Both the position numbers and the translations under genes were made by a program. The notes beneath the pieces are model-generated. The model was not told the DNA's origin and did no database searches. It was given only the letters and a program-made list of their open reading frames with translations. From the IMG/VR virus record IMGVR_UViG_2909262264_000002, positions 1 through 41,038 of that record: a stretch of DNA of 41,038 bases; one strand, 5' to 3'. The DNA is from a virus. Lineage: Duplodnaviria > Heunggongvirae > Uroviricota > Caudoviricetes. This document shows, in pieces, positions 1-18,635 of this stretch (positions are counted from its first letter, which is position 1; the number at the start of each line of letters is the position of its first letter).

Positions 1-1074
1 TCATTTGTCGATTTCAATTTTGTCCCATTCCCGTCCACGGCTGTCCCTATACCGCGCCGCCATTGAATCTGATTTATGCCCGAGAAGACGTTGAGCAAAC
101 TTATCGCCAATCTGGTTCCGGTATAGCCTCGCTGACAGGCTACGCAGTTCATGGAATGTTGGCGGGTTTCCATCAAATGAGAGGCCAGATGCATTTCTCG
201 CCTTTGTAAAATACTTTGATACTGTTTTCGGGGAAAGCGGATCGTGATGCTTTGATGCGATTATAGTTTCACTGCTGCTGGCCTCCCTGCATTTCTGTAG
301 TGTATCAGCCAATGAGATATTGAGCGCGTCAATCGTTAGCGTTAGCGGAATGGCGAGTTTAGCCCCTGTTTTACTCTGTTTAATGTGAAGATGGTTGTCG
401 TTTATGTCTGACCATTTCATTCTGCACAAATCGCCGACTCTCTGCCCTGTAACGACGGCCAAATCCATCGCCAGCCTTAGCCAGATAGGGAGAGGTTCGG
501 CTGCATGGTAAATCTCGACATACTCATTAGCTGTCAGCCTTGAGCGCCTTACTTCTGACTTTGCTGTACGGGTTGCTGTTACCGGATTCGTTGCCACATG
601 CCCCTCGGCTATTGCTTCACGAAAAACGTCAACAAGGGTTGACCTGATTAATTTTGCGGAAGCTGCTTTACCTTCTGCTACGTAGGTGTTTAGCATTGCT
701 GCCACTTCTTTCGTTGATATGTCAGTGAGCGGTTTGTCCGGCAATTTTCTTCGGATTGCCCTGATTTTGCTGGCGTAGTCGAGTAGAGTTTTCGGCCTGA
801 TCCCCCTTTCGGTGAGGATTGTTTCATATCGGTCAAGCCACACATGAAGAGTGATTGCGTCACCGCCTTTAATTCTGTCTATTAGTGATTTGCGTCCGCT
901 GTCTGAGAGTAATTCAATATTGGCCTGTATTGCTTCAGTGATTGCTATCCTCCTGTCTCGGCCTAAACCAAACTCTTTACCCGTCCTTGGGTCCCTGTAG
1001 CAGTAATATCCATTGTTTCTTATATAAAGGTTAGGGGGTAAATCCCGGCGCTCATGACTTCGCCTTCTTCCCAT
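1..1074 (-). CDS. int: Tyrosine integrase, lambda Int family (357 aa)
   Basis: ORF translation starts MGRRRSHERRDLPPNLYIRNNGYYCYRDPRTGKEFGLG and ends with the R..HxxR..Y catalytic region, nearly colinear with lambda Int as I remember it; stop codon at 1..3. Confidence 0.95.
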   Translation of the reverse strand: MGRRRSHERRDLPPNLYIRNNGYYCYRDPRTGKEFGLGRDRRIAITEAIQANIELLSDSGRKSLIDRIKGGDAITLHVWLDRYETILTERGIRPKTLLDYASKIRAIRRKLPDKPLTDISTKEVAAMLNTYVAEGKAASAKLIRSTLVDVFREAIAEGHVATNPVTATRTAKSEVRRSRLTANEYVEIYHAAEPLPIWLRLAMDLAVVTGQRVGDLCRMKWSDINDNHLHIKQSKTGAKLAIPLTLTIDALNISLADTLQKCREASSSETIIASKHHDPLSPKTVSKYFTKARNASGLSFDGNPPTFHELRSLSARLYRNQIGDKFAQRLLGHKSDSMAARYRDSRGREWDKIEIDK

Positions 1075-1270
1075 TTCTGATCCTCTTCAAAAGGCTACCT
1101 GTTACTGGTCGATTTAAGTCAACCTTTACCGCTGATTCGTGGAACAGATACTCTCTTCCATCCTTAACCGGAGGAGGGAATATCCTGCATTCGCGCACCC
1201 ATCGACGAACTGTTTCAAGGCTTCTTGGGCGTCGCTGGCGAGCGTTCCACTCCTGAAGTGTCAAGTACAT
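1052..1270 (-). CDS. xis: Excisionase (72 aa)
   Basis: Internal start MYLTLQEWNARQRRPRSLETVRRWVRECRIFPPPVKDGREYLFHESAVKVDLNRPVTGSLLKRIRNGKKAKS matches lambda Xis; overlaps int start as in lambda. The longer 102-aa ORF in the track is probably an N-terminal over-extension. Confidence 0.85.
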   Translation of the reverse strand: MYLTLQEWNARQRRPRSLETVRRWVRECRIFPPPVKDGREYLFHESAVKVDLNRPVTGSLLKRIRNGKKAKS

Positions 1271-1387
1271 CGCAAAGTCTCCGCAATTACACGCAAGAAA
1301 AAGCCGCATTGATGCGGCGATGGTAGGTCTGGATATCATTGAGCAATGAACAGGCCTCATCGAGTGTGAGGCGGTGTTATTTCATGG

Positions 1388-1648
1388 TTAGTCCTTGCGT
1401 AGCTCGCTGATTCTTCTGTAAGTCTCTGGTGCTTTGTTTCCGTGTATCTTCATTTCAGACTTCAACAGAGCAACGAGGGAATCCCATTCGTTGAGGATTC
1501 CTTTGAATGCCGGAACGCGCTTTGCAACCTTGTTGAATGAATCTCTGATTTCTGGAATCTGCTCAACAAGTGCAACGCATCGTCTGAAATCGGCTGCGTC
1601 ATGGGGAGCGCCGAAGTGATGACCATAGATATTCTTTTCAGTCCACAT
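1388..1648 (-). CDS. Hypothetical protein (86 aa), int-proximal accessory region
   Basis: Intact ORF with natural amino-acid composition, same strand as neighbours; no function recognised. Confidence 0.45.
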   Translation of the reverse strand: MWTEKNIYGHHFGAPHDAADFRRCVALVEQIPEIRDSFNKVAKRVPAFKGILNEWDSLVALLKSEMKIHGNKAPETYRRISELRKD

Positions 1649-1742
1649 GCGATTGAGGCAAGAGTTGCGCTACTGATGCCGACATCGCCAGTCGATTGCC
1701 ATTTCAAAACCTTCATAGCCAAATCTGACATTTCTTGTCTCC

Positions 1743-1770
1743 AATAAAAAACCGCCATCAGGCGGCTTGG
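1743..1770 (-). terminator. Putative intrinsic terminator (leftward transcription)
   Basis: Plus strand AAAAAACCGCCATCAGGCGGC; read on the minus strand this is hairpin GCCGCCTGATGGCGG followed by a T-run. Confidence 0.4.
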
Positions 1771-1925
1771 TGTTCTTTCAGTTCTTCAATTCGAATATTG
1801 GTTACGTCTGCATGTGCTATCTGCGCCCATAGCATCCAGTGGTCATAGCAGTCATTGATGTTCTCTGCTTCGATAACTCTGTTGAATGGTTCTCCATTCC
1901 ATTCACCTGTGACTCGGAAGTGCAT
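1758..1925 (-). CDS. Small hypothetical protein (about 55 aa, MHFRVTGEWNGEPFNRVIEAENINDCYDHWMLWAQIAHADVTNIRIEELKEHQAA)
   Basis: ATG-initiated ORF below the ORF-track size cut-off; its stop lies inside the terminator hairpin. Hand-translated. Confidence 0.35.
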   Translation of the reverse strand: MHFRVTGEWNGEPFNRVIEAENINDCYDHWMLWAQIAHADVTNIRIEELKEHQAA

Positions 1926-2008
1926 TTATCATCTCCATAAAACAAAACTCGCCGTAGCGAGTTCAGATATAATTTCCACCAAAGGCAGTAGTTGCTTGAT
2001 GCTAAGAA

Positions 2009-2437
2009 TTATTCAATATCTATTCCTGTAATATCTTTTATCTTTTTCCTTGCAAAGCCTTTTGCTAGTGATTTTGAAACACTCATAAGTGTACTAATTC
2101 CCTCATCCTTAAAGTTTGTTTTTATAGCTTGCCAGACATCCTTTTGACGTAAGTCAGCAATAAAATCATGCCCTCTTGCTGTCAACCTCAGTGGTACTTC
2201 GATCCAACTATATCCAACACCTTCCCCTAACGCTTTGGACATTATATGACCGAACCCAGGTTTTCCATCAACCCTGACTATTAATTCGTAGTCACATAAT
2301 AATCGCATATGGAAAATAAAATCTTGGTCATATCTATTAAAACCATTATCCTCTAGTTCACTAAGCATCGTGTCAGGGCCACGAGTTTTTTCGAATGCGA
2401 TAAGTAGATCTTTTAGATATTGCTGGTCTAATTTCAT
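2009..2437 (-). CDS. Hypothetical protein (142 aa); paralog of the ORF at 17061..17468
   Basis: Shares aligned blocks with the 135-aa ORF at 17061..17468 (DQQYLKDLLIAFEK vs DLEYLKGMLGVFIK; RLTARGHDFIADLRQKDVWQAIKT vs RLTSSGQEFAETLQQKDVFEKLKT; C-terminal ARKKI vs AKKKF). Resembles small uncharacterised prophage proteins (possibly DUF2513, from memory only). Confidence 0.6.
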   Translation of the reverse strand: MKLDQQYLKDLLIAFEKTRGPDTMLSELEDNGFNRYDQDFIFHMRLLCDYELIVRVDGKPGFGHIMSKALGEGVGYSWIEVPLRLTARGHDFIADLRQKDVWQAIKTNFKDEGISTLMSVSKSLAKGFARKKIKDITGIDIE

Positions 2438-2465
2438 TGCCGCCTCCGTGACATGTCACAGAGAT

Positions 2466-2804
2466 TTATATCATTAATTTTGTTTCGTGCCAGCCTTTGG
2501 TCACCCAGCATTGTGAGTCACCATTACACGGGCATGAATTAACAGGAACTCTCTCGCCGCACTTACCGCAACGTTTTCTGCTGATCGATTTTATACGCCA
2601 GCGCACACGTGCATCATCCTGGCGGCTCAGTAACGCGATGTACTCACCAAACTCGCAAGGCGCACGCCTGAAGCGACGCGTGGCACAGTTACGCTCCAGC
2701 ATTTCAATTTCCTGAGCATCAAGTACAAGCTCCAGCTTACGCATACCGGATGATGCTTGCTTGGCTCTCTGATCGGCTTTGTGCTCTGTTGCTGATTTAG
2801 CCAT
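2466..2804 (-). CDS. Hypothetical Cys-rich protein (112 aa), possible zinc ribbon
   Basis: C-terminal CGKCGERVPVNSCPCNGDSQC cluster; lies 28 nt upstream of the 2009..2437 gene on the same strand, so likely co-transcribed. Confidence 0.5.
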   Translation of the reverse strand: MAKSATEHKADQRAKQASSGMRKLELVLDAQEIEMLERNCATRRFRRAPCEFGEYIALLSRQDDARVRWRIKSISRKRCGKCGERVPVNSCPCNGDSQCWVTKGWHETKLMI

Positions 2805-2998
2805 TCTGCTTTTCCTGCATCAGGAGAAAGACAATCATGGCGGCGCGGATACTTCCGGTATCTTTTTACGCGATATTCCCCTTCAATGGCACATACAAAA
2901 AGAGAGCCATCCACAGGAGTGATTGAGGAATCGACAACCAGCAACGCTTAATTATCTATAGTGTCGTATTTGCTTCATAAAATATGGCGAATAACACA

Positions 2999-3032
2999 AA
3001 GCCCGCAGCAGCTCATTGTGCGGGCTTTTCTT
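2999..3032 (-). terminator. Putative intrinsic terminator (hairpin GCCCGCA...TGCGGGC flanked by T-rich tracts)
   Basis: Inverted repeat in the intergenic region immediately 3' of the minus-strand gene 3098..3712. Confidence 0.45.
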
Positions 3033-3097
3033 ATACCTACTTCCTAGAGATAATTCTATGGAGGCATTAAATCAATACTGTCATTGGTAATATCATA

Positions 3098-3712
3098 TTA
3101 TCTAAAAGTCTTTCCACTTTTAACATCTAGGTATATTCTGTTCGACAACGTCATTCCTCCGCAATATGTGAAATAGATGTTTTCACCCTTATTGCTTGAT
3201 GCCATCCACCCTCCGATTTCCTTAAAATCGCTTTCCGTGCAGACCCCTTCATTTATTAACTTCCTAGCTGCCGAAGAAAACTCTTTTTTGTATATACGGT
3301 AGTCATCAGATCCTTTGATTAAAGTATCATCTCCGCTCGCATTTTCAGCAGGATCTGATGGCCTTTCACTGCTAAGATCACTAAGTTTAACCCATTCTGA
3401 AAACTTGCCATTAACGATTCCATTTTTTCTTGTGCAGGATTTATTACCTTCTTTAATATATTCGCTTTCCCCTCCAACACATGAGGCTGAATATGGCTCA
3501 GTTATACGAACCCATTCACCTTTTTTTTCTAGAAAATCTACGCCTTCCCTGAAAAATAGTTTCCCAGCCACTCCACATTTACTTGAAGGGCAGGTATGTC
3601 TTTCCGTTCGATCAACAACAACCCATAGTTTTGATTCATTTTTTGCCATTGCCGATGGTATTTGAGATGAGACAATTAACGTAAGCCCTAAAATTAGTAT
3701 TGATTTTTTCAT
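3098..3712 (-). CDS. Secreted/periplasmic Cys-containing protein of unknown function (204 aa)
   Basis: N-terminus MKKSILILGLTLIVSSQIPSAMA-KNE looks like a Sec signal peptide with an AxA cleavage site; mature part has several Cys; local sequence is AT-richer by eye. Confidence 0.6.
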   Translation of the reverse strand: MKKSILILGLTLIVSSQIPSAMAKNESKLWVVVDRTERHTCPSSKCGVAGKLFFREGVDFLEKKGEWVRITEPYSASCVGGESEYIKEGNKSCTRKNGIVNGKFSEWVKLSDLSSERPSDPAENASGDDTLIKGSDDYRIYKKEFSSAARKLINEGVCTESDFKEIGGWMASSNKGENIYFTYCGGMTLSNRIYLDVKSGKTFR

Positions 3713-4010
3713 TGTAATTTCCTTTTACTTTTTACAAAGCGTTTAATCATGGCTGATTATCTCTAAGCGTAGTAACAGCCTTGTGCGAAACATGTTACCA
3801 AATCGCCATTTCAGTGTATCCGCAGTTAGGCTGCCACTTCAAGGATTCCTAATTACATGGTACGTAAGCGTAAAATCCCGTTGGTTGGCTGGTAATAACT
3901 CTGATCAAATCTCCCTTGTCTTTTGCTCTTACGTATGCAGCTCTTGTGTATTCAACCCAGGCCTCCAGTTCAGCAATACGCTTACTTCCATCCGAGATAA
4001 CACCTTCTAC

Positions 4011-4262
4011 TCACGCTGCTCGTTGAGTTTTGATTTTTGCTGTCTCCAGCTCAACACGCAGTTTCCCCACCGTTAGCGCAATATCCTCGTTCTCCTGGTC
4101 GCGGCGTTTGATGTATTGCTGGTTTCTTTCCCGTTCATCCAGCAGTGTCAGCACAATCGATGGTGTTACCAGCTCATGGAAAAGGTCCGCGTCAAATCCC
4201 CAGTTGTCATGCATTGCCTGCTCTGCCGCTTCACGCAGTGCCTGAGAGTGAATTACGCTCAC
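4011..4262 (-). CDS. Hypothetical protein (83 aa), apparently GTG-initiated
   Basis: ORF track; the start codon position reads GTG. My hand count of this ORF disagreed with the track by 1 nt, so boundaries are approximate. Confidence 0.45.
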   Translation of the reverse strand: MSVIHSQALREAAEQAMHDNWGFDADLFHELVTPSIVLTLLDERERNQQYIKRRDQENEDIALTVGKLRVELETAKIKTQRAA

Positions 4263-4480
4263 TTCGAACCTCTCTGTTTACTGATAAGCTCCAGATCTTC
4301 CTGGCAACTTGCACAAGTCCGACAACCCTGAACGGCCAGGCGTCTTCGCTCATCTATGGGATCGCCACACTCACAACAATGAGTGGCAGATACAGCCTGG
4401 TGGTTCAGGCGGCGCATTTTTATTGCTGTGTTGCGCTGTAATTCTTCAATTTCTGATGCTGAATCAATGATGTCTGCCAT
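4259..4480 (-). CDS. TraR/DksA-type C4 zinc-finger protein (73 aa)
   Basis: CCECGDPIDERRRLAVQGCRTCASC gives a CxxC...CxxC pattern with a spacing typical of the small TraR-like proteins common in lambdoid prophages. Confidence 0.6.
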   Translation of the reverse strand: MADIIDSASEIEELQRNTAIKMRRLNHQAVSATHCCECGDPIDERRRLAVQGCRTCASCQEDLELISKQRGSK

Positions 4481-4578
4481 CTTCCATTAATCCCTGAATT
4501 GTTGGTTAATACGCTTGAGGATGAATGCGAACAATAAAAAAGGAGCCTGTAGCTCCCTGATGATTTTGCTTTTCATGC

Positions 4579-4794
4579 TCACCGTTCCTTAAAGACGCCG
4601 TTTAACATGCCGATCGCCAGGCTTAAATGAGTCGGTGTGAATCCCATCAGCGTTACCGTTTCGCGGTGCTTCTTCAGTACGCTACGGCAAATGTCATCGA
4701 CGTTTTTATCCGGAAACTGCTGTCTGGCTTTTTTGATTTCAGAATTAGCCTGACGGGCAATACTGCGAAGGGCGTTTTCCTGCTGATGTGTCAT
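4579..4794 (-). CDS. Hypothetical protein (about 71 aa from internal Met; ORF track extends to 4860)
   Basis: ORF track; start choice uncertain. Confidence 0.35.
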   Translation of the reverse strand: MTHQQENALRSIARQANSEIKKARQQFPDKNVDDICRSVLKKHRETVTLMGFTPTHLSLAIGMLNGVFKER

Positions 4795-4870
4795 TGAACA
4801 AGTCCCATGTCGGCAAGCATAAGCACACAGAATATGAAGCCCGCTGCCAGAAAAATGCATTCAGTGGTTG

Positions 4871-5062
4871 TCATACCTGGTCTCTCTCATCTGCTTCTGC
4901 TTTCGCCACCATCATTTCCAGCTTTTGTGAAAGGGATGCGGCTAACGTATGAAATTCTTCGTCTGTTTCTACTGGTATTGGCACAAACCTGACTCCAATT
5001 TGAGCGAGGCTATGTGCCATCTCAATGCTCGTTCTTAACTCAACAGGAGATGCTTTGTGCAT
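4871..5062 (-). CDS. Hypothetical protein (63 aa)
   Basis: ORF track, same strand as the early-left operon. Confidence 0.35.
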   Translation of the reverse strand: MHKASPVELRTSIEMAHSLAQIGVRFVPIPVETDEEFHTLAASLSQKLEMMVAKAEADERDQV

Positions 5063-5223
5063 ACAGCTCCCCGTTTATTATTTATCTCCTCAGCCAGCCG
5101 CTGTGCTTTCAGGGGATTTCGGGTAACAGAAAGGCCGGGAAATACCCAGCCTCGCTTTGTAACGGAGTAGACGAAAGTGATCGCGCCTACCCGGATATTA
5201 TCGTGAGGATGCTTCATCGCCAT
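5035..5223 (-). CDS. Hypothetical protein (62 aa)
   Basis: ORF track; short overlaps with the 4871..5062 ORF and with exo. Confidence 0.35.
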
Positions 5224-5894
5224 TGCTCCCCAAATACAAAACCAATTTCAGCCAGTGCCTCGTCCATTTTTTCGATGAACTCCGGCACCATCTCGTCAAA
5301 ACTCGCCATGTACTTTTCATCCCGCTCAACCACGACATAATGCAGGCCTTCACGCTTCATACGCGGGTCATAGTTGGCAAAGTACCAGGCATCTTTTCGC
5401 GTCACCCACATGCTGTACTGCACCTGGGCCATGTAAGCCGACTTTATGGCCTCGAAACCACCGAGCCGGAACTTCATGAAATCCCGGGAGGTAAACGGGC
5501 ATTTCAGCTCAAGACCATTGCCGTCACTGCATAAACCATCGGGAGAGCAGGCGGTGCGCATACTTTCGTCGCGATAGATGATCGGGGATTCAGTAACATT
5601 CACGCCGGAAGTGAATTCAAACAGGGTTCTGGCGTCGTTCTCGTACTGTTTTCCCCAGGCCAGCGCTTTAGCATTAACTTCCGGAGCCACACCGGTGCAA
5701 ACCTCAGCCAGCAGGGTGTGGAAGTAGGACATTTTCATGTCAGGCCACTTCTTTCCTGAGCGGGGCTTTGCTATCACGTTGTGAACTTCTGAAGCGGTGA
5801 TGACGCCGAGCCGTAATTTGTGCCATGCATCATCCCCCTGTTCGACAGCTCTCACGTCGATCCCGGTACGCTGCAGGATAATGTCCGGTGTCAT
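5214..5894 (-). CDS. exo: Lambda exonuclease (Red alpha, 226 aa)
   Basis: Translation [37 protein letters not shown]... matches lambda Exo as I remember it. Confidence 0.95.
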
Positions 5895-6676
5895 GCTGCC
5901 ACCTTCTGCTCAGTGGCTTTCTGTTTCAGGAATCCAAGAGCTTTCACTGCTTCGGCCTGTGTCAGTTCTGACGATGCGCGAATATCGCGGCGAAATATCT
6001 GGGAACAGAGCGGCAATAAGTCGTCATCCCATGTTTTATCCAGGGCGATCAGCAGAGTGTTAATCTCCTGCATGGTTTCATCGTTAACCGGAGTGATGTC
6101 GCGTTCCGGCTGACGTTCTGCAGTGTATGCAGTATTTTCGACAATGCGCTCGGCTTCATCCTTGTCATAGATACCAGCAAATCCGAAGGCCAGACGGGCA
6201 CACTGAATCATGGCTTTATGCCGCAACATTCGTTTGGGATGCGACTGCCACGGTCCGGTGATTTCTCTGCCTTCGCGGGTTTTGAATGGTTCGCGGCGGC
6301 ATTCATCCATCCACTCGGTAACGCAGATCGGATGATTACGGTCCTTGCGGTAAATCCGGCATGTGCAGGATTCATTGTCCTGCTCAAAGTCCATGCCATC
6401 AAACTGCTGGTTTTCATTGATGATACGGGACCAGCCATCAACGCCCACCACCGGAACGATGCCGTTCTGCTTATCAGGGAAGGCGTAAATTTCTTTCGTC
6501 CACGGATTAAGGCCGTACTGGTTGGCGACGATCAACAATGCGATGAACTGCGCATCGCTGGCATCACCTTTAAATGCCGTCTGGCGAAGAGTGGTGATCA
6601 GTTCCTGTGGGTCGACAGAATCCATGCCGACACGTTCAGCCAGCTTCCCTGCCAGCGTTGCGAGTGCTGTACTCAT
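5891..6676 (-). CDS. bet: Red beta single-strand annealing protein (261 aa)
   Basis: Translation [37 protein letters not shown]... matches lambda Bet; 4-nt overlap with exo. Confidence 0.95.
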
Positions 6677-6681
6677 CCGCT

Positions 6682-7098
6682 TTATACCTCTGAATCAATA
6701 TCAACCTGGTGGTGAGCAATGGTTTCAACCATGTACCGGATGTGTTCTGCCATGCGCTCCTGAAACTCAACATCGTCATCAAACGCACGGGTAATGGCTT
6801 TTTTGCTGGCCCCGTGGCGTTGCAAATGATCGATGCAGAGTGATTCAAACAGGTGCTGGGGCAGACCTTTTTCCATGTCGTCTGCCAGTTCTGCCTCTTT
6901 CTCTTCACGGGCGATCTGCTGGTAGTGACGCGTCCAGCTCTGAGCCTCAAGACGATCCTGAATGTAATAAGCGTTCATGGCTGAACTCCTGAAATAGCTG
7001 TGAAAATATCGCCCGCGAAATGCCGGGCTGATTAGGAAAACAGGAAAGGGGGTTAGTGAATGCTTTTGCTTGATCTCAGTTTCAGTATTAATATCCAT
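6682..7098 (-). CDS. gam: Gam, RecBCD inhibitor (138 aa)
   Basis: Translation [36 protein letters not shown]... matches lambda Gam. Confidence 0.9.
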
Positions 7099-7196
7099 TT
7101 TTTATAAGCGTCGACGGCCTCACGAAACATCTTTTCATCGCCAATAAAAGTGGCGATAGTGAATTTAGTCTGGATAGCCATAAGTGTTTGATCCAT
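7053..7196 (-). CDS. kil: Kil (47 aa), host cell-division inhibitor
   Basis: The C-terminal 47 aa of the 7053..7322 [50 protein letters not shown], match lambda Kil. Confidence 0.8.
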
Positions 7197-7329
7197 TTTT
7201 TGGGACTCCTGGCTGATTAAGTATGTCGATAAGGCGTTTCCATCCGTCACGTAATTTACGGGTGATTCGTTCAAGTAAAGATTCGGAAGGGCAGCCAGCA
7301 ACAGGCCACCCTGCAATGGCATATTGCAT
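7165..7329 (-). CDS. cIII: CIII (54 aa), FtsH inhibitor that stabilises CII
   Basis: Hand translation of the minus strand gives [54 protein letters not shown], the lambda CIII sequence; it overlaps the kil start in another frame. Below ORF-track size cut-off. Confidence 0.85.
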   Translation of the reverse strand: MQYAIAGWPVAGCPSESLLERITRKLRDGWKRLIDILNQPGVPKNGSNTYGYPD

Positions 7330-7401
7330 GGTGTGCTCCTTATTTATACATAACGAAAAACGCCTCGAGTGAAGCGTTATTGGTATGCGGTAACGCCGCG
7401 C

Positions 7402-7770
7402 TCAGGCGGCTTTGATAGTCATATCATCTGAATCAAATATTCCTGATGTATCGATATCGGTAATTCTTATTCCTTCGCTACCATCCATTGGAGGCCATCC
7501 TTCCTGACCATTTCCATCATTCCAGTCGAACTCACACACAACACCATATGCATTTAAGTCGCTTGAAATTGCTATAAGCAGAGCATGTTGCGCCAGCATG
7601 ATTAATACAGCATTTAATACAGAGCCGTGTTTATTGAGTCGGTATTCAGAGTCTGACCAGAAATTATTAATCTGGTGAAGTTTTTCCTCTGTCATTACGT
7701 CATGGTCGATTTCAATTTCTATTGATGCTTTCCAGTCGTAATCAATGATGTATTTTTTGATGTTTGACAT
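7402..7770 (-). CDS. ea10: Ea10-like protein (122 aa)
   Basis: Size and position after cIII as in lambda; identification from memory of the lambda Ea10 sequence. Confidence 0.75.
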   Translation of the reverse strand: MSNIKKYIIDYDWKASIEIEIDHDVMTEEKLHQINNFWSDSEYRLNKHGSVLNAVLIMLAQHALLIAISSDLNAYGVVCEFDWNDGNGQEGWPPMDGSEGIRITDIDTSGIFDSDDMTIKAA

Positions 7771-7972
7771 CTATTCATATCCTCACAGAAAAAAATCGCC
7801 CTCACACTGGAGGGCAAAGAAGATTTCCAATAATCAGAACAAGTCGGCTCCTGTTTAGTTACGAGCGACATTGCTCCGTGTATTCACTCGTTGGAATGAA
7901 TACACAGTGCAGTGTTTATTCTGTTATTTATGCCAAAAATAAAGGCCACTATCAGGCAGCTTTGTTGTTCTG

Positions 7973-8152
7973 TTAACCAAGTTCTCTGGCAATCATTGCC
8001 GTCGTTCGTATTGCCCATTTATCGACATATTTCCCATCTTCCATTACAGGAAACATTTCTTCAGGCTTAACCATGCATTCCGATTGCAGCTTGCATCCAT
8101 TGCATCGCTTGAATTGTCCACACCATTGATTTTTATCAATAGTCGTAGTCAT
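7973..8152 (-). CDS. ral: Ral restriction-alleviation protein, C-terminally truncated (59 aa)
   Basis: Hand translation MTTTIDKNQWCGQFKRCNGCKLQSECMVKPEEMFPVMEDGKYVDKWAIRTTAMIARELG then TAA; the next in-frame codons encode QNNKAA then stop, i.e. the tail I remember for the 66-aa lambda Ral. Confidence 0.8.
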   Translation of the reverse strand: MTTTIDKNQWCGQFKRCNGCKLQSECMVKPEEMFPVMEDGKYVDKWAIRTTAMIARELG

Positions 8153-8222
8153 ACGGATAGTCCTGGTATTGTTCCATCACATCCTGAGGATGCTCTTCGA
8201 ACTCTTCAAATTCTTCTTCCAT
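8136..8222 (-). CDS. Lambda orf28-like small protein (28 aa, MEEEFEEFEEHPQDVMEQYQDYPYDYDY)
   Basis: Hand translation; 28 codons overlapping the ral start, as in lambda. Confidence 0.55.
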   Translation of the reverse strand: MEEEFEEFEEHPQDVMEQYQDYPYDYDY

Positions 8223-8530
8223 ATATCACCTCAAATAAGTTGTTTGCTGCGAAAGTAAATACGCTTAAGTTACCTGTTATTTATTCCACCAAGTTCCGTA
8301 TCTATCTATCCAGTTACACCAATCATCGACACTCCATTTTGTTGTGTCGCATTTTGGCAACTGGCATGAATATCTACCTTCTTTGTAAAGTCGGCGTTTG
8401 ACTTTCTTGAGCATGGCTCACCTCAATCGTAATAAGCTGGAATTGATTTTCCGCGTTGCTTCTGGCGGCCTGAGCAGGTAACCCTCATTTCACTGCGTGG
8501 CTTGCGGTAGTAAATTAGATTTGTTCAGAC

Positions 8531-8556
8531 AATAAAAAACCCACCGAAGTGGGCTA
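8531..8556 (-). terminator. Intrinsic terminator (tL1-like) after the N-distal gene
   Basis: On the minus strand: CCCACTTCGGTGGG hairpin followed by TTTTTTATT, immediately after the stop of the 8554..8898 ORF. Confidence 0.6.
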
Positions 8557-8898
8557 TGACCATTTTTTATTTGGATTTCGTTGGTGAGCGTGATTAACAA
8601 CTCTGTGCATTACATCCTCATATTTTTCATCTTCAATTTTTTCGACATCGCGAGGAAATGGTGTTGCTAATGCTTTGTCAACTTTGTCCATTGGTTCTTC
8701 ATTAATCTTATATTCAGGACCGTCATCTATAGCATTAAATCCAGGTGTTACACCGTTTTTTAATGCATATGCTATCCTTTTTTCCCATCTCGCTATTCTC
8801 CTCCTGTCTCGAGATGTAAGACCTCTATCAGATACTTTTCTGTTTTGTCCGCGGTCAGGATTAACATAAATAGTCTTTTTCACCATAAGCATACTCAA
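8554..8898 (-). CDS. Hypothetical basic/charged protein (114 aa) translationally coupled to N
   Basis: Start overlaps the N stop (ATGA); Arg/Lys-rich N-terminal half; no homolog recognised. Confidence 0.55.
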   Translation of the reverse strand: MSMLMVKKTIYVNPDRGQNRKVSDRGLTSRDRRRIARWEKRIAYALKNGVTPGFNAIDDGPEYKINEEPMDKVDKALATPFPRDVEKIEDEKYEDVMHRVVNHAHQRNPNKKWS

Positions 8899-9200
8899 TA
8901 AGCACCGTACGGTAGTTTACTGTACAATTTTATTTTTTGGACTGCATGTATTTTGTTTCCTAACGGGTTTGAATCTTTGTAATAAATACTTCTATTTTTT
9001 CGAACAACTTCTTCTTTCTTCTTGCAGCAAAGGCTTCCTAGTGATGCTGCTTTGTCTGCTCTGACGCAACCAGAGAGCTTTAGCGCAATTTTTCGCGCCA
9101 GTGCTTCATTACTGCGTCGCTCGGCAATAAGTTCTGCTCTGCGAGCTTTGTAGCGGCTTTTTGCCGTACCTTTGGATTCTTTCCAGACAATGGTTACCAT
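8895..9200 (-). CDS. N: N-type transcription antiterminator, phi21-like (about 101 aa)
   Basis: N-terminal arginine-rich motif GTAKSRYKARRAELIAERR as I recall for phi21 N; located directly downstream of pL/nutL. Start taken at MVTIVWK; the ORF track extends to 9230. Confidence 0.8.
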   Translation of the reverse strand: MVTIVWKESKGTAKSRYKARRAELIAERRSNEALARKIALKLSGCVRADKAASLGSLCCKKKEEVVRKNRSIYYKDSNPLGNKIHAVQKIKLYSKLPYGAY

Positions 9201-9310
9201 GATGGTCTCCTTTAAGTGGCTTTGGCGCATGACGCGTCGAGGTGCTTATCTTCTCGATCGCTGTCTTGCAGCTGCAATTCGCGCCATCCCCAAAACCACT
9301 CAAGTTCTGG

Positions 9311-9350
9311 TCTCAATGGTTAGGTTGAGAGTCCGTCGATGTTAAAGAGC
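9311..9350 (-). promoter_or_regulatory. nutL: boxA plus boxB hairpin
   Basis: Minus-strand reading GCTCTTTAACA (boxA-like), a short spacer, then UCUCAA-CCUAACCA-UUGAGA hairpin (boxB), upstream of N. Confidence 0.6.
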
Positions 9351-9403
9351 CTGCCAATCTGTTCCGTTTGGCTTCCAGCGTCCTGCTGATAGCTTAAATT
9401 TAA

Positions 9404-9440
9404 GACTTCTTAATTTATTGGTCAAGTACATTTTTGAAGA
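9404..9440 (-). promoter_or_regulatory. pL promoter with overlapping OL operator palindrome
   Basis: Minus-strand TTGACC, 17-nt spacer, TAAATT; embedded palindrome AATTAAGAAGTCTTAAATT resembles P22-type operators. Confidence 0.5.
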
Positions 9441-9487
9441 AAACTTAATTTTATGGGCGTGAATTTAGTTTGTCTTTGATTTTTAAC

Positions 9488-9512
9488 GGGAAATAAAAAA
9501 GGGGCGAAAGCC
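9488..9512 (-). terminator. Putative intrinsic terminator after the repressor gene
   Basis: Minus-strand GGGGCTTTCGCCCC hairpin followed by TTTTTTATTT just 3' of the c2 stop. Confidence 0.5.
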
Positions 9513-9514
9513 CC

Positions 9515-10165
9515 TTAAGGAAGGTTTGCTAGCTTGGCATCAACGACAACGCCAATGATTTTACAGTTCCCATTGATTTCAATCATTGGGTATTGTGGAT
9601 TGAGTGGTTTCAGGAATTTTCTACCGGCATCAATAACTAACTTTTTGAATGTCGCCTCGTTTTCTCCTTCAAGTTTGGCGACTACCAGCTTTCCATTACG
9701 TGGTTCGACTTCTGGGTCGACGAGAATAATCATCCCCTCAGGAATACTCAGTCCTGCCGGGGCAGTCATTGAATCGCCTTTAACGTCGAGCCAAAAAGAG
9801 TCTTCAGAACAATCTACCGTTGTGTCGTACCAGTTATCTATTGCACGCCTATGATATGGCTCTACAGCTTCCATCCAACATCCTGCGCTTACCCAACTAA
9901 TTAGAGGATACGAACCTCTTGGATCATGCCTGCTGTGATAGGCAATGTTTGAAAGACTATCCTCTCCTTTCAACAGGTAATCAGGGGAGCACTGCAAAGC
10001 CTTGGCTAAGGCCAATAGGTTTTCGCCATTGGGCTCAGTTTCAGATCGCTCCCATTGGGAAATAGCAACATTAGACACGCCAACCATCTTGCCAAGGGCA
10101 GCCTGCCTAATCTTGAGTTCTTTTCTGCGAGCGCGAATACGCTCACCCATCAGTTGTGTATTCAT
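9515..10165 (-). CDS. c2: Prophage repressor, P22 C2 / lambda CI type (HTH plus S24 LexA-like autopeptidase, 216 aa)
   Basis: Translation MNTQLMGERIRARRKELKIRQAALGKMVGVSNVAISQWERSETEPNGENLL... is nearly identical to the P22 C2 repressor as I remember it. Confidence 0.95.
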   Translation of the reverse strand: MNTQLMGERIRARRKELKIRQAALGKMVGVSNVAISQWERSETEPNGENLLALAKALQCSPDYLLKGEDSLSNIAYHSRHDPRGSYPLISWVSAGCWMEAVEPYHRRAIDNWYDTTVDCSEDSFWLDVKGDSMTAPAGLSIPEGMIILVDPEVEPRNGKLVVAKLEGENEATFKKLVIDAGRKFLKPLNPQYPMIEINGNCKIIGVVVDAKLANLP

Positions 10166-10245
10166 AGTTAAGACATCTTAAATAAACTTGACTTAAGATT
10201 CCTTTGGTGGATAATTTAAGTGTTCTTTAATTTCGGAGCGAGTCT
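10166..10245. promoter_or_regulatory. OR operator region with divergent pR and pRM
   Basis: pR: TTGACT (about 10188) / 16 nt / GATAAT (about 10210). Operator-like ATTTAAGTGTTCTTTAAT overlaps the -10 and a second copy ACTTAAGATTCCTTTGGT overlaps the -35. The repressor ATG abuts the region, so the pRM transcript would be nearly leaderless as in lambda. Confidence 0.65.
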
Positions 10246-10431
10246 ATGTACAAAAAAGATGTTATTGACCACTTCGGAACCCAGCGTGCTGTTGCTAAAG
10301 CACTAGGCATTAGCGATGCAGCAGTCTCTCAGTGGAAAGAAGTTATCCCAGAGAAAGACGCCTATCGATTGGAAATCGTTACAGCTGGCGCCCTGAAGTA
10401 TCAAGAAAGTGCTTACCGCCAAGCGGCATAA
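10246..10431 (+). CDS. cro: Cro (61 aa), P22-type
   Basis: Translation MYKKDVIDHFGTQRAVAKALGISDAAVSQWKEVIPEKDAYRLEIVTAGALKYQ... matches P22 Cro; SD GGAG sits 7 nt upstream. Confidence 0.9.
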   Translation: MYKKDVIDHFGTQRAVAKALGISDAAVSQWKEVIPEKDAYRLEIVTAGALKYQESAYRQAA

Positions 10432-10437
10432 GCAAAT

Positions 10438-10486
10438 TGCTCTTTAACAGTTCTGGCCTTTCACCTCTAACCAGGTGAGCAAACAT
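10438..10486 (+). promoter_or_regulatory. nutR: boxA TGCTCTTTAACA plus boxB-like hairpin
   Basis: boxA consensus immediately after the cro stop; hairpin TCACC-TCTAACCA-GGTGA follows. Confidence 0.55.
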
Positions 10487-10546
10487 CAGCGGCAAATCCA
10501 TTGGGTGTGCCGCTATAACTCAATATCAATATAGGAAAATTAACAA

Positions 10547-10846
10547 ATGGCACAAGCAAGCTACAGCAAGCCAACACAGCGAGAAATTGATCGCGCTGAA
10601 ACTGATTTACTCATCAACCTGTCAACGCTTACCCAGCGCGGTCTGGCAAAGATGATTGGCTGTCATGAATCGAAGATAAGCAGAACGGACTGGAGGTTTA
10701 TAGCTTCGGTCTTGTGTGCTTTTGGCATGGCATCAGACATCAGTCCGATTAGCAGAGCTTTTAAGTATGCGCTTGATGAAATCACCAATAAAAAACGCCC
10801 GGTGTGCAAGACCGAGCGTTCTAATCAAATCCAGATGGAATTCTGA
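10547..10846 (+). CDS. cII: CII-type lysogeny activator (P22 C1-like, 99 aa)
   Basis: C-terminus KKRPVCKTERSNQIQMEF parallels the lambda CII C-terminus KKRPAATERSEQIQMEF. Confidence 0.85.
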   Translation: MAQASYSKPTQREIDRAETDLLINLSTLTQRGLAKMIGCHESKISRTDWRFIASVLCAFGMASDISPISRAFKYALDEITNKKRPVCKTERSNQIQMEF

Positions 10847-10878
10847 GGTCATTACTGGATCTATCAACAGGAGTCATT

Positions 10879-11778
10879 ATGACAAATACAGCAAAAATAC
10901 TCAACTTCGGCAGAGGTAACTTTGCCGGACAGGAGCGTAATGTGGCAGATCTCGATGATGGTTACGCCAGACTATCAAATATGCTGCTTGAGGCTTATTC
11001 AGGCGCAGATCTGACCAAGCGACAGTTTAAAGTGCTGCTTGCCATTCTGCGTAAAACCTATGGGTGGAATAAACCAATGGACAGAATCACCGATTCTCAA
11101 CTTAGCGAGATTACAAAGTTACCTGTCAAACGGTGCAATGAAGCCAAGTTAGAACTCGTCAGAATGAATATTATCAAGCAGCAAGGCGGCATGTTTGGAC
11201 CAAATAAAAACATCTCAGAATGGTGTATCCCTCAAAACGAGGGAAAATCCCCTAAAACGAGGGATAAAACATCCCTCAAATTGGGGGATTACTATCCCTC
11301 AAAACAGGGGGACACAAAAGACACTATTACAAAAGAAAAAAGAAAAGATTATTCGTCCGAGAATTCTGGCGAATCCTCTGACCAGCCAGAAAACGATCTT
11401 TCTGTGGTTAAACCGGATGCTGCAATTCAGAGCGGCAGCAAGTGGGGGACAGCAGAAGACCTGACCGCCGCAGAGTGGATGTTTGACATGGTGAAGACCA
11501 TCGCGCCATCAGCCAGAAAACCGAATTTTGCAGGGTGGGCTAACGATATCCGCCTGATGCGTGAACGTGACGGACGTAACCACCGCGACATGTGCGTGCT
11601 GTTCCGCTGGGCATGCCAGGACAACTTCTGGTCCGGTAACGTGCTTAGCCCGGCCAAACTCCGCGACAAGTGGACCCAGCTCGAAATCAACCGTAACAAG
11701 CAACAGGCAGTCGTGACAGCCAGCAAACCAAAACTCGACCTGACAAACACAGACTGGATTTACGGGGTGGATCTATGA
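10879..11778 (+). CDS. O: Replication initiator O (299 aa)
   Basis: Translation matches lambda O over its full length as I remember it. Confidence 0.95.
   Translation: MTNTAKILNFGRGNFAGQERNVADLDDGYARLSNMLLEAYSGADLTKRQFKVLLAILRKTYGWNKPMDRITDSQLSEITKLPVKRCNEAKLELVRMNIIKQQGGMFGPNKNISEWCIPQNEGKSPKTRDKTSLKLGDYYPSKQGDTKDTITKEKRKDYSSENSGESSDQPENDLSVVKPDAAIQSGSKWGTAEDLTAAEWMFDMVKTIAPSARKPNFAGWANDIRLMRERDGRNHRDMCVLFRWACQDNFWSGNVLSPAKLRDKWTQLEINRNKQQAVVTASKPKLDLTNTDWIYGVDL
11225..11360 (+). repeat. Origin of replication: four iterons (TCCCTCAAAACGAGGG-like) plus adjacent AT-rich tract, inside O
   Basis: Direct repeats ATCCCTCAAAACGAGGGAAA / ATCCCCTAAAACGAGGGATA / ATCCCTCAAATTGGGGGATT / TATCCCTCAAAACAGGGGGACA followed by an A-rich stretch, as in lambda ori. 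Confidence 0.8.
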
Positions 11779-12763: not shown

Positions 12764-12785
12764 CCATCTACATCACTGAGCTAAT

Positions 12786-12818
12786 AACAGGCCTGCTGGT
12801 AATCGCAGGCCTTTTTAT
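12786..12818 (+). terminator. tR2-like intrinsic terminator
   Basis: AGGCCTGC-TGGTAATC-GCAGGCCT hairpin followed by TTTTTATTT, between ren and ninB. Confidence 0.6.
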
Positions 12819-12836
12819 TTGGGGGAGAGGGAAGTC

Positions 12837-15374: not shown

Positions 15375-15377
15375 AAC

Positions 15378-15412: not shown

Positions 15413-15417
15413 CGCAT

Positions 15418-17060: not shown

Positions 17061-17468
17061 ATGCAGACCGATCTGGAATACTTGAAGGGAATGTTAGGGG
17101 TTTTTATTAAGGCTGGCAGACCATTGATATCAGCTAATGACCTTAAAAAAGCTGGATACGAAATAAGCAGCGATAAAGGACTCTTTCATTACTACCAATT
17201 GATTGAGAGAGGTTATATCAGTAACCATTTTCTAGAAATAGGCGATCCTAAGAAATTAGGACTTACTATTGGGCTTAATGAAATCCGTGAATGGCCAGCC
17301 AATGTAAGACTCACGTCATCAGGCCAAGAGTTTGCAGAAACCCTTCAACAAAAGGATGTTTTTGAGAAGCTAAAAACAATTAGCGATCAACCATTATCGG
17401 TATTGAAAGATGTTGGTGTAGAGCTTCTAAAATCCTACGCAAAAAAGAAATTTGGTCTTTCAGATTAA
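17061..17468 (+). CDS. Hypothetical protein (135 aa); paralog of the ORF at 2009..2437
   Basis: See the paralog alignment blocks; lies between the lysis cassette and terminase (moron position). Confidence 0.6.
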   Translation: MQTDLEYLKGMLGVFIKAGRPLISANDLKKAGYEISSDKGLFHYYQLIERGYISNHFLEIGDPKKLGLTIGLNEIREWPANVRLTSSGQEFAETLQQKDVFEKLKTISDQPLSVLKDVGVELLKSYAKKKFGLSD

Positions 17469-17469
17469 C

Positions 17470-17492
17470 TGCCTATGGGCGGTTTTTATTGC
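17470..17492 (+). terminator. Putative intrinsic terminator
   Basis: CTGCC-TATG-GGCGG hairpin followed by TTTTTATT directly after the 17061..17468 stop. Confidence 0.4.
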
Positions 17493-17784
17493 CATTACGA
17501 TGATTCTCCCCATTGTGATGGCAGTATCCCCTACAGAGGATAATTAACCATATATCCCCACAAGCAGATAAAGAGGCTCTCAATGTCCGACATCTACCAA
17601 ACCCAAACAGGCGAAACCTTTACGGGCAAGACGTCACGACGTCAGCCTGAGCTGGTTAATGGCTTTATGCAGCTGGCTACCGAGACGGGCGAGTAAATAA
17701 CTCCATTAGGAGAATGTGGAACCATTACACTTTGAGCCGTTAACTGATATTGATAAAGGTAAATAATATCCTGGTTAAGGTTTT

Positions 17785-18057
17785 CTAATAGCCAGCCATT
17801 TGCAAAATCACAGTTACAGCAGCAGCGAAAGCTGCATATGAGTTATATTTAGACTGTAACCGCGCAGTTAAGAAAAATTCGTGAAGATCTACATTTTTTT
17901 TGGGATCATCAAATGTAATTGCTACAACGGTGCTTCTACCTGTTTTGACTTTGGCTGTTGCTGATTTGATCCATAACCCAGCCGATAAAAACCCAAAGAA
18001 AATCGATAGTGCATGATGGTCAATTAACCAGTTTTTAATTAGTAATAAATCACTCAT
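17785..18057 (-). CDS. Small membrane protein of unknown function (about 90 aa, two predicted TM segments)
   Basis: Opposite strand to the late operon; hydrophobic stretches ALSIFFGFLSAGLWI and AAFAAAVTVILQMAGY; start chosen at the internal MSDLLL. Confidence 0.5.
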   Translation of the reverse strand: MSDLLLIKNWLIDHHALSIFFGFLSAGLWIKSATAKVKTGRSTVVAITFDDPKKNVDLHEFFLTARLQSKYNSYAAFAAAVTVILQMAGY

Positions 18058-18633: not shown

Positions 18634-18635
18634 GT

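What the first reader, a model, noticed from the sequence alone, without database searches (positions are those of the whole stretch)
2009..2804. Int-proximal accessory operon: Cys-rich zinc-ribbon-like protein plus a small protein that has a paralog elsewhere in the prophage
The 112-aa ORF at 2466..2804 (CGKCGERVPVNSCPCNGDSQC) and the 142-aa ORF at 2009..2437 sit in the variable region between xis and the Red genes, a classic cargo hotspot, with a terminator just downstream. The 142-aa protein is clearly homologous to the 135-aa protein at 17061..17468, about 30% identical by eye with shared N- and C-terminal blocks. Two diverged copies of one uncharacterised family in two different moron positions of one prophage is unusual.
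Basis: partly seen in the sequence, partly recalled or inferred. Interest (0 to 1): 0.55.

Follow-up and report, generated by a model that had tools for sequence, protein, structure and literature searches.

The report
Prophage cargo genes: two DUF2513 copies
A lambda-like prophage carries two distantly related copies of an uncharacterised small winged-helix protein (DUF2513) in two cargo slots, one next to a cysteine-rich partner gene that travels with it in other phages; the genes are real and accessory, but their function is still unknown.

Summary
ORF 2009..2437(-) is a DUF2513 protein, above Pfam's cut-off. ORF 17061..17468(+) is a diverged homologue: 35% identity, E 1e-14, same PHROG 585. 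ORF 2466..2804(-) is a conserved 112-aa protein (PHROG 536, the epsilon15 gp49 family) with invariant Cys/His. Intrinsic terminators follow both DUF2513 genes.

New here:
- The 112-aa gene followed by DUF2513 is a conserved gene pair in diverged Enterobacterales prophages. It occupies three different slots: int-proximal, nin region, and just upstream of terS.
- In E. coli the 112-aa gene is often broken while DUF2513 stays intact.
- The two window copies belong to separate lineages that assort independently. No complete E. coli genome carrying copy b also has copy a, so they look like two acquisitions, not a duplication.
- A confident model (pLDDT 93) shows a MarR/PadR-like winged helix. The family is acidic, and in some relatives the domain is fused to TIR, AbiTi-like or PDC-S60 defence-type modules.

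The genes are dispensable for packaging and are not a toxin-antitoxin pair. Function remains unknown. My best guess is an accessory recognition or regulatory module in phage-host or phage-phage conflict. Interest is modest: both families are already catalogued and no mechanism is shown.

The parts
2009..2437 (-). DUF2513a: 142-aa DUF2513 / PHROG 585 winged-helix protein (RefSeq WP_000762733.1), 36% G+C
2466..2804 (-). p112: 112-aa basic protein of PHROG 536 (epsilon15 gp49 / N15 gp46 family; WP_001129736.1). It has a possible ribbon-helix-helix N-terminal half and a C-terminal CxxC...CxC...C...H motif. It lies 28 nt upstream of DUF2513a.
   Evidence: ORF. PHROG 536, 7e-48. 394 homologue clusters, most of those listed 112 aa. 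Invariant C40, C79, C82, C91, C93, C99 and H106. epsilon15 gp49 annotation. pI 9.3. Weak match to YbfE.
2837..2944 (-). 36-codon remnant of a UmuD-like / Peptidase_S24 gene (pseudogene fragment) just upstream of p112
   Evidence: Pfam Peptidase_S24, E 0.005. PGAP calls it 'DNA repair protein, incomplete'. Present in nearly all E. coli-type loci that span the region.
1945..1964 (-). Intrinsic terminator-like hairpin plus T-tract, 45 nt after the DUF2513a stop codon
   Evidence: 8 pairs, GAACTCGCTACGGCGAGTTT followed by TGTTTTATGG.
3000..3026 (-). Hairpin (AGCCCGCA...TGCGGGCT) followed by a T-rich tail. It lies after the 204-aa gene and so bounds the cassette upstream. It also reads as a terminator on the + strand.
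   Evidence: Read directly from the sequence. The + strand version was detected at 3010-3026.
17061..17468 (+). DUF2513b: 135-aa member of a second DUF2513 lineage (WP_001192566.1), 37.5% G+C, between Rz and terS
   Evidence: ORF. PHROG 585, 1e-26. 35% identity to copy a. Keeps the family-wide residues H43, R84-L-T, G89 and F92. 44 homologue clusters.
17467..17484 (+). Intrinsic terminator-like hairpin overlapping the DUF2513b stop codon
   Evidence: 7 pairs, AACTGCCTATGGGCGGTT followed by TTTATTGCCA.
17583..17696 (+). Truncated 37-codon remnant of a 69-aa ORF that follows DUF2513b-type genes in Citrobacter prophages
   Evidence: BLASTP 85% identity to L155:4024-4230, E 7e-23.
17785..18057 (-). 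90-aa hydrophobic hypothetical protein (WP_001281633.1), 37% G+C. It shares the lysis-terS cargo slot with copy b.
   Evidence: ORF. PGAP CDS in strain MS 119-7. No Pfam match.

Best explanation
The window carries two separately acquired accessory cargo cassettes of a lambdoid prophage. Each encodes a small DUF2513 protein.

Shown:
- DUF2513 folds as a MarR/PadR-like winged helix-turn-helix with a C-terminal helical extension.
- Copy a lies in a two-gene unit behind p112, a basic, Cys-rich protein of the epsilon15 gp49 family. This gene pair has been co-inherited across diverged Enterobacterales prophages and moved between three genome slots.
- Copy b belongs to a different lineage that sits alone between the lysis genes and terS.
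- Neither gene is needed for integration, recombination or packaging.

Inferred:
- DUF2513 is a recognition or regulatory module that binds a nucleic acid or a protein, probably as a dimer, and acts in phage-host or phage-phage conflict, for example exclusion of other phages or counter-defence. The main reason is that in relatives the same 130-aa module forms the N-terminus of proteins whose C-termini are defence-type effectors (TIR, AbiTi-like, PDC-S60-like).
- p112 is a DNA-binding co-regulator transcribed with it. It is not essential for DUF2513 function.
- In this window both genes would be transcribed by antiterminated read-through: from pL for copy a and from the late promoter for copy b.
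For: Family and fold:
- Family assignments.

Conserved pair:
- 16 of 40 diverged IMG/VR loci of the copy-a clade have a p112 homologue upstream on the same strand. p112 identity is 47-67% and DUF2513 identity 54-73%.
- In most of these loci the two genes are about 30 nt apart.
- The slots are int-proximal, nin region, and immediately 5' of terS. The pair also occurs in the Yersinia frederiksenii genome.

Independent assortment:
- Prophages in strains 09A19CPO009, LH10-b-1 and TL20 have copy a only. MS 119-7 has copy b only.
- All 11 listed copy-b genomes have a single match to a query joining the copy-b region and the copy-a gene.

Dispensable for packaging:
- The same TerS protein, WP_001218989.1, occurs with and without copy b.

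Link to conflict systems:
- Fusions: DUF2513+TIR (P0248; PycTIR / PDC-S35), DUF2513+PDC-S60 N-terminal domain (P0313, 2e-28), and DUF2513+AbiTi-like tails (P0346, P0235, P0331).
- Defence genes lie directly next to DUF2513 in some loci: AbiU in L055 and a type IIG restriction-modification enzyme in L118.

Other:
- Purifying selection.
- Low G+C and flanking terminators.
Against: - No experiment or literature bears on function. DUF2513 appears in a single, irrelevant paper.
- The window proteins match no PADLOC model.
- The fusions are rare, about 5 of the 150 best representatives. Adjacency to defence genes is sporadic, and across 58 species-level loci the neighbours are heterogeneous.
- The family is acidic (median pI 5.4), and the helix-turn-helix region of copy a has net charge -5. 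That fits a classical DNA-binding repressor poorly.
- p112's ribbon-helix-helix assignment is weak: NCBIfam E 0.0068, hhalign probability 3.8%, no Pfam RHH match. Its structure model is unreliable (pLDDT 54).
- p112 is disrupted in 23 of 40 E. coli-type loci. The pair is therefore not an obligate unit, and the E. coli cassette may simply be decaying.
- No promoter of its own was found.
Confidence: 0.45

Rival explanations
1. Plain transcription factors. DUF2513 is a MarR/PadR-type dimeric repressor or activator, and p112 is a second DNA-binding regulator. Together they tune prophage or host genes, as lysogenic-conversion regulators, with no direct role in defence.
For: The winged-helix fold is closest to MarR, PadR, HxlR and TubR regulators. 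PHROG 536 and RefSeq phage records label p112 relatives 'transcriptional regulator'. p112 is basic. Most small wHTH proteins in prophages are regulators (general knowledge).
Against: The family is acidic and the recognition-helix region is negatively charged. No conserved operator or promoter travels with the cassette; in other phages the pair abuts or overlaps the upstream gene. There is no sequence membership in the MarR or PadR Pfam families. The 'transcriptional regulator' labels are annotation transfer, not experiment.
Confidence: 0.3
2. Decaying junk. The int-proximal cassette (S24 remnant, frequently broken p112, DUF2513a) and the lysis-terS insert (DUF2513b plus a truncated ORF) are hitch-hiking remnants with no present function in this prophage.
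For: A UmuD-like fragment lies upstream. p112 is disrupted in 23 of 40 E. coli-type loci, and the window allele changes the nearly invariant P45 and Y50. A truncated 37-aa ORF follows copy b. Frameshifted genes and an Ea22 fragment lie nearby.
Against: DUF2513a is intact in 37 of 40 loci while its neighbour decays. Both copies keep every family-wide conserved residue except H90, which is Q in copy b. dN/dS is about 0.15 for copy b, and dS is saturated at dN 0.15-0.45 for copy a. The family has 1,360 clusters at 50% identity.
Confidence: 0.12
3. Toxin-antitoxin-like pair: p112 is a DNA-binding antitoxin encoded first, and DUF2513 is the toxin.
For: The gene order and spacing resemble type II modules: a small, possibly ribbon-helix-helix protein first, then a 28-nt gap and the second gene. 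The pair is mobile between slots. The nin region is known to hold such modules in the Qin prophage (general knowledge).
Against: DUF2513 has no toxin-like domain; it is a winged helix. The charges are the reverse of the usual pattern: the upstream protein is basic and the downstream one acidic. p112 is disrupted in 23 of 40 E. coli-type loci while DUF2513a is intact in nearly all of them, which a toxin could not tolerate. DUF2513 is usually solitary, and p112 is usually solitary in phages.
Confidence: 0.03
4. Packaging accessory: DUF2513 helps the small terminase recognise phage DNA, which would explain its recurrent position directly upstream of terS.
For: Copy b and many relatives are the last gene before terS or before HNH-terS. 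Small terminases themselves use HTH or wHTH domains (general knowledge).
Against: The identical TerS protein WP_001218989.1 occurs in prophages without any DUF2513 in that slot and with it. DUF2513 sits next to several unrelated terS types, for example Terminase_2 and the different terS of L083-L091. It also occurs in int-proximal, nin and non-phage chromosomal contexts. Only 3 of 50,697 phage records carry a tblastn match to copy a.
Confidence: 0.05

Closest known systems
Pfam DUF2513 (PF10711) / PHROG 585, and the related YjcQ family (PF09639) of the Bacillus subtilis SKIN prophage
   Same: Copy a scores above the Pfam cut-off, and both copies match PHROG 585 end to end. Size (about 135 aa), the single-domain build and the conserved residues H43, R84-L-T, G89 and F92 are all kept. 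Some relatives also match YjcQ.
   Different: Copy b is below Pfam's cut-off and belongs to a separate Enterobacterales lineage. The family itself has no known function, so membership explains nothing mechanistic.
Salmonella phage epsilon15 gp49 / phage N15 gp46 (PHROG 536, annotated 'transcriptional regulator')
   Same: p112 is 70% identical to epsilon15 gp49. It has the same length and the same Cys/His pattern.
   Different: In most of the 58 phage records with a p112 homologue there is no DUF2513 match; only Chlobot appears in both searches. In this lineage p112 is paired with DUF2513 downstream. No member has been studied experimentally as far as I could find.
MarR / PadR family winged-helix transcription regulators
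   Different: There is no sequence-level membership. The protein is acidic overall and in the helix-turn-helix region. The wing is longer (four strands). DNA binding has not been shown.
Single-protein abortive-infection / defence effectors with an N-terminal recognition domain (PycTIR / CAP12-type TIR proteins, PADLOC candidates PDC-S35 and PDC-S60, lactococcal AbiTi)
   Same: In several relatives the whole DUF2513 module is the N-terminus of proteins whose C-termini match these effectors.
   Different: The window proteins have no effector domain and no PADLOC match. They are the recognition module alone.
Lambdoid morons and cargo hot spots (for example lambda bor after Rz; the xis-to-exo 'b2/ea' region)
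   Same: The two slots are the same ones. G+C is low (36-38% against 49% for the window), a terminator follows each gene, and presence or absence varies among near-identical prophages.
   Different: No sigma-70-like promoter of their own was detected. Expression in the lysogen is therefore not supported.

Membership tests
Pfam DUF2513 (PF10711) | Whole-protein score at or above the gathering cut-off of 29.6 bits | tested here: met
   Copy a scores 42.7 bits, E 7.7e-11. Copy b scores only 15.5 bits (not met on its own). It is tied to the family by PHROG 585 (1e-26), by BLASTP to copy a (E 1e-14) and by NCBI names of its relatives.
Pfam DUF2513 (PF10711) | Family-wide conserved residues (H43, R84-L85-T86, G89, F92 in copy-a numbering) | tested here: met
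   All are present in both copies. H90 is Q in copy b. Based on an alignment of 117 representatives plus both copies.
MarR/PadR-type wHTH regulators | Winged helix-turn-helix fold with helical dimerisation elements | tested here: met
MarR/PadR-type wHTH regulators | Sequence membership (Pfam MarR, MarR_2 or PadR) and a basic DNA-reading surface | tested here: not met
   No such Pfam match at E<=1. Family median pI is 5.4, and residues 21-50 of copy a carry net charge -5.
MarR/PadR-type wHTH regulators | Sequence-specific binding to operator DNA as a dimer | not testable with these tools
   Needs EMSA, ChIP or a structure of a complex.
Ribbon-helix-helix (CopG/Arc/MetJ) DNA-binding proteins (for p112) | Match to an RHH profile, with the beta-strand, helix A, helix B pattern | tested here: inconclusive
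   No Pfam RHH match. NCBIfam YbfE E 0.0068, 16.8 bits against a cut-off of 62. hhalign against E. coli YbfE gives probability 3.8% and places KLELVLD on the YbfE RHH strand. The predicted helices at 30-42 and 52-61 fit, but the model is poor (pLDDT 54).
Zinc ribbon / zinc knuckle (for p112) | Four conserved metal ligands in CxxC...C...C spacing | tested here: met
   C79, C82, C91, C99 and H106 are conserved in every p112 homologue examined; C93 is F in one clade. The fold itself was not established and there is no match in the PDB.
Moron (autonomous cargo gene of a prophage) | Own promoter and own terminator, composition unlike the neighbours, variable presence | tested here: inconclusive
   Terminators, low G+C and variable presence are met. 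No promoter-like site lies upstream on the coding strand. In other phages the pair abuts or overlaps the preceding gene.
Type II toxin-antitoxin module | The antitoxin gene is indispensable while the toxin gene is intact, and the toxin has a growth-inhibiting domain | tested here: not met
   p112 is disrupted in 23 of 40 loci while DUF2513a is intact in 37 of 40. DUF2513 is a winged helix with no toxin domain.
Known anti-phage defence systems (PADLOC-DB 2.0) | Match of a window protein to a defence-system model | tested here: not met
   No match at E<=0.1 for any of the six proteins tested: the five ORFs in the 1.4-3.7 kb region and copy b. Only fused relatives match.

The most novel reading that the evidence does not exclude
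DUF2513 is the recognition module of a widespread, undescribed class of phage-conflict proteins. In some bacteria it is fused to TIR, AbiTi-like or PDC-S60-type effectors as a one-protein abortive-infection system. Temperate phages carry the bare module, alone or with the Zn-binding p112 partner. There it could act as a trans-acting sensor or excluder against competing phages, or as a decoy that blocks the host's fused versions. On this reading a prophage with two diverged copies would cover two specificities.
Probability: 0.15. Interest if true: 0.6.

Novelty: new member of a known kind. Interest (0 to 1): 0.33.

Why it matters
If DUF2513 proves to be a recognition module shared by defence effectors and by phage cargo genes, it would give a function to a family of more than a thousand 50%-identity clusters. 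It would also add a small, easily tested two-gene cassette (p112 plus DUF2513) to the list of prophage-borne conflict genes. As it stands, the result is mostly a cleaner annotation:
- The genes are real and accessory.
- The two copies are independent acquisitions.
- The p112-DUF2513 linkage is conserved outside E. coli but decaying within it.

Tried and rejected
- **Solved structures:** sequence searches of the PDB found nothing useful for DUF2513a, for p112 or for the p112 profile.
- **p112 structure:** the prediction was unreliable (pLDDT 54), so I ran no fold search on it.
- **Fold libraries:** the afdb50 library was unavailable. The BFVD viral fold search returned only unnamed proteins.
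- **Literature:** searches for DUF2513, PF10711, YjcQ, the RefSeq accessions, the PHROG ids, epsilon15 gp49 and N15 gp46 gave no functional data.
- **SOS link:** I suspected one because of the UmuD-like remnant and the YbfE-like motif, but there is no CTGT-N8-ACAG LexA box anywhere in the window.
- **Universal partner:** all-against-all clustering of neighbours in the 58 species-level loci plus 22 diverged viral loci gave only p112 (Enterobacterales only) and phage housekeeping genes as recurrent neighbours.
- **False leads:** a 112-aa minus-strand ORF next to DUF2513b-type genes in Citrobacter has the same length as p112 but is unrelated. An apparent 851-aa DUF2513 'fusion' in L127 is a spurious ORF in high-G+C DNA.
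- **Rejected models:** the toxin-antitoxin and packaging-accessory models; reasons are given under the rival explanations.
- **dN/dS:** for copy a against diverged relatives dS was saturated, so no ratio could be given.

Full report
**Setting.** The window is a lambdoid prophage. The gene order runs int, xis, a variable region, exo/bet/gam, immunity, replication, nin genes, Q, two tRNAs, lysis genes, terS/terL and a myovirus-type tail module. Nearly identical left ends sit next to torS in E. coli chromosomes. A 2-kb stretch that includes the finding is 99.3% identical to the sequenced Escherichia phage Chlobot.

**Checking the observation.**
- All three ORFs exist as described.
- The 142-aa and 135-aa proteins align over their full lengths at 35% identity, E 1e-14. 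Both match PHROG 585 end to end.
Copy a scores 42.7 bits against Pfam's cut-off of 29.6. Copy b is below threshold at 15.5 bits, but some of its closer relatives are named DUF2513 by NCBI.
- The 112-aa ORF ('p112') matches PHROG 536 over its whole length, E 7e-48. It has 394 homologue clusters, and most of those listed are exactly 112 aa.
- C40, C79, C82, C91, C93, C99 and H106 are invariant among 24 aligned homologues. A more distant clade keeps C79, C82, C91, C99 and H106.
- A terminator-like hairpin follows copy a at 1964..1945(-) and another follows copy b at 17467..17484(+).
- Comparisons with relatives show purifying selection. dN/dS is about 0.15 for p112 and for copy b. For copy a, dS is saturated while dN is 0.15-0.45.
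- The overlapping 105-aa ORF at 2627..2944, which phage Chlobot annotates as 'UmuD-like protein', is not a gene. Only its first 36 codons (2837-2944) are a Peptidase_S24 remnant.

**What DUF2513 looks like.**
- With a 27-sequence alignment, AlphaFold2 gave a confident model: pLDDT 93.4, pTM 0.84. It has an N-terminal helix, a winged helix-turn-helix with a four-stranded wing, and three C-terminal helices.
- A profile search of 1.84 billion representatives finds 1,360 clusters at E<=0.001. Nearly all of the 150 best are single-domain proteins of about 135 aa.
- Species-level genome hits span Gamma-, Beta- and Alphaproteobacteria, Acidobacteriota, Nitrospirota and others.
- Family-wide conserved residues are H43, R84-L-T, G89 and F92. 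Both window copies keep them.
- The family is acidic, with median pI 5.4. The helix-turn-helix region of copy a has net charge -5. The fold says 'MarR-like', but the surface does not obviously say 'DNA-binding repressor'.

**A conserved gene pair.** This is the main new result. I took 40 IMG/VR loci encoding diverged relatives of copy a (49-77% identity).
- 16 of the 40 have a p112 homologue (47-67% identity) upstream on the same strand. In most the gap is about 30 nt. In two loci one small ORF intervenes, and in one p112 is itself degraded.
- The pair sits in three different places:
  - next to int, as in the window and in L080;
  - in the nin region ahead of the DUF1367/YbcO/Q genes (L059, L061, L071, L074, L081, and the Yersinia frederiksenii genome);
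  - immediately upstream of terS (L057, L060, L064, L066, L070, L072, L073, L076).
- Both genes have therefore moved together over considerable divergence.
- The link is restricted, though. None of the loci at 51% identity or less, and only one other of the 58 species-level loci, has p112 nearby. Neighbour clustering found no other recurrent partner.
- Conversely, p112 is usually alone. It sits in the nin region of Salmonella prophages, and 58 phage records carry a homologue, including epsilon15 (gp49), phiV10 and SPN1S. By contrast, only three phage records carry a tblastn match to copy a.
- Within E. coli the partnership is decaying. In 40 loci with a copy-a allele at 90% identity or more, p112 is disrupted in 23: 19 internal stops, three N-terminal deletions and one frameshift. 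It is missing from two further loci, one of which has no room for it upstream of the match. DUF2513a is intact in 37. PGAP records the same internal stop in strain TL20.
- That pattern rules out an antitoxin-toxin relationship. It also shows that DUF2513a, if functional, does not need p112.

**What p112 is.** It is basic (pI 9.3).
- Its N-terminal half has a weak match to the ribbon-helix-helix protein YbfE. NCBIfam gives E 0.0068. hhalign gives probability 3.8% and lays KLELVLD on YbfE's RHH strand. YbfE itself is a clear RHH_1 protein.
- One phage record calls a homologue 'RepB-like replication regulatory protein'.
- This is a lead, not a demonstration. No Pfam RHH model matches and the structure model is poor.
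- The C-terminal Cys/His pattern is conserved well enough to expect a zinc site.

**Two copies, two acquisitions.**
- Copy b's relatives (44 clusters, Enterobacterales) lie after the lysis cassette and ahead of the packaging or ParB-type genes. They are next to different terS types and never have p112 beside them.
- The two slots vary independently among otherwise similar prophages. Strains 09A19CPO009, LH10-b-1 and TL20 carry the copy-a cassette and other cargo at the lysis-terS junction. MS 119-7 carries copy b and no copy a.
- A query that joins the copy-b region to the copy-a gene finds only one place in each of the 11 listed complete E. coli genomes that have copy b. No genome covers 80% or more of window 1-20000.
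- The copy-a cassette is present in about 140 of 5,426 genomes, and copy b in about 11. Their meeting in one prophage is therefore rare, but lambdoid mosaicism explains it.
- The identical TerS protein WP_001218989.1 occurs with and without copy b. Copy b is therefore not a packaging factor, despite the family's habit of sitting just before terS.

**Hints about function.** None of the six window proteins tested matches a PADLOC model, and I found no functional literature. Two indirect lines point to phage-host conflict.
- Fusions. Among the best 150 family representatives, the full DUF2513 module is fused to:
  - a CAP12/Pycsar-type TIR domain (P0248; PADLOC PDC-S35 and PycTIR);
  - the N-terminal domain of candidate system PDC-S60 (P0313, E 2e-28);
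  - AbiTi-like C-termini (P0346, P0235, P0331).
- Neighbours. In some loci the adjacent gene is a defence gene: AbiU in L055, L056 and L058; a type IIG restriction-modification enzyme in L118; an OLD/GajA-like ATPase near L050; and a weak TIR-like protein in L082.

These cases are a minority, and cargo slots collect defence genes anyway. I treat this as a hypothesis at roughly one chance in three.

**Expression.** No sigma-70-like site precedes either cassette on the coding strand, and there is no LexA box in the window. In other phages the pair abuts or overlaps the upstream gene. Transcription by antiterminated read-through is therefore the simplest expectation: from pL for copy a and from the late promoter for copy b. 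This is inference.

**Verdict.**
- Both families are already catalogued: Pfam DUF2513 / PHROG 585, and PHROG 536 / epsilon15 gp49. RefSeq carries these same genes as WP_000762733.1, WP_001129736.1 and WP_001192566.1.
- This analysis adds four things: the conserved but non-obligate p112-DUF2513 pairing across three slots, the MarR/PadR-like fold with an acidic surface, the independent origin of the two copies, and the fusions to defence-type effectors.
- Function remains unknown. I rate the interest as modest.

Noticed in passing
window 2837-2944 (-): A 36-codon fragment of a UmuD-like / Peptidase_S24 gene lies directly upstream of p112. PGAP calls it an incomplete 'DNA repair protein'. Phage Chlobot annotates the whole overlapping 105-aa ORF (2627-2944) as 'UmuD-like protein', which is an annotation artefact. 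Pantoea phage AH07 also has a UmuD-like gene about 1.7 kb from its p112 homologue.
   Followed up: partly
window 1388-1758 (-): Two overlapping ORFs (86 aa and 98 aa) are the two halves of a frameshifted copy of the 114-aa gene known as ORF114 in phage 434; HK022 has the same stretch. The gene is intact as WP_001281197.1 in strain SCU-301, and PGAP marks it 'frameshifted' in LH10-b-1.
   Followed up: partly
window 3098-3712 (-): A 204-aa protein with an N-terminal signal-like sequence and a weak bacterial SH3 match (PHROG 8310, 38% G+C). It travels with the p112-DUF2513a cassette in most E. coli loci and is followed by a strong hairpin at 3026..3000.
   Followed up: no
window 17583-17696 (+): A 37-codon ORF that is 85% identical to the first 41 residues of a 69-aa ORF found right after DUF2513b-type genes in Citrobacter prophages. 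It is a truncated remnant, which suggests the copy-b insert once carried a second gene.
   Followed up: partly
window 17785-18057 (-): A 90-aa hydrophobic protein (WP_001281633.1, 37% G+C) is encoded on the opposite strand between copy b and terS. Related prophages hold different reverse-strand genes (143 aa, 171 aa) at the same spot.
   Followed up: no
window 15466-15621 (+): tRNA-Asn (GTT) and tRNA-Thr (TGT) genes lie between the Q antiterminator gene and the holin gene, as in related E. coli prophages.
   Followed up: no
window 2466-2804 (-), codons 45-50: The window's p112 allele, which is the common E. coli one, reads RRFRRAPCEF where the family consensus is RRPGRAPYEM. This changes the nearly invariant P45 and Y50. 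Together with the frequent stops and deletions in sister alleles, it suggests relaxed selection on p112 in E. coli.
   Followed up: partly
loci L132, L137, L138, L147 (Acidobacteriota genomes): Here DUF2513 is followed by a protein of about 400 aa that, in the one member scanned (L137), has a SEC-C motif and a MauJ-like domain. This is a recurrent neighbour in this phylum only.
   Followed up: no
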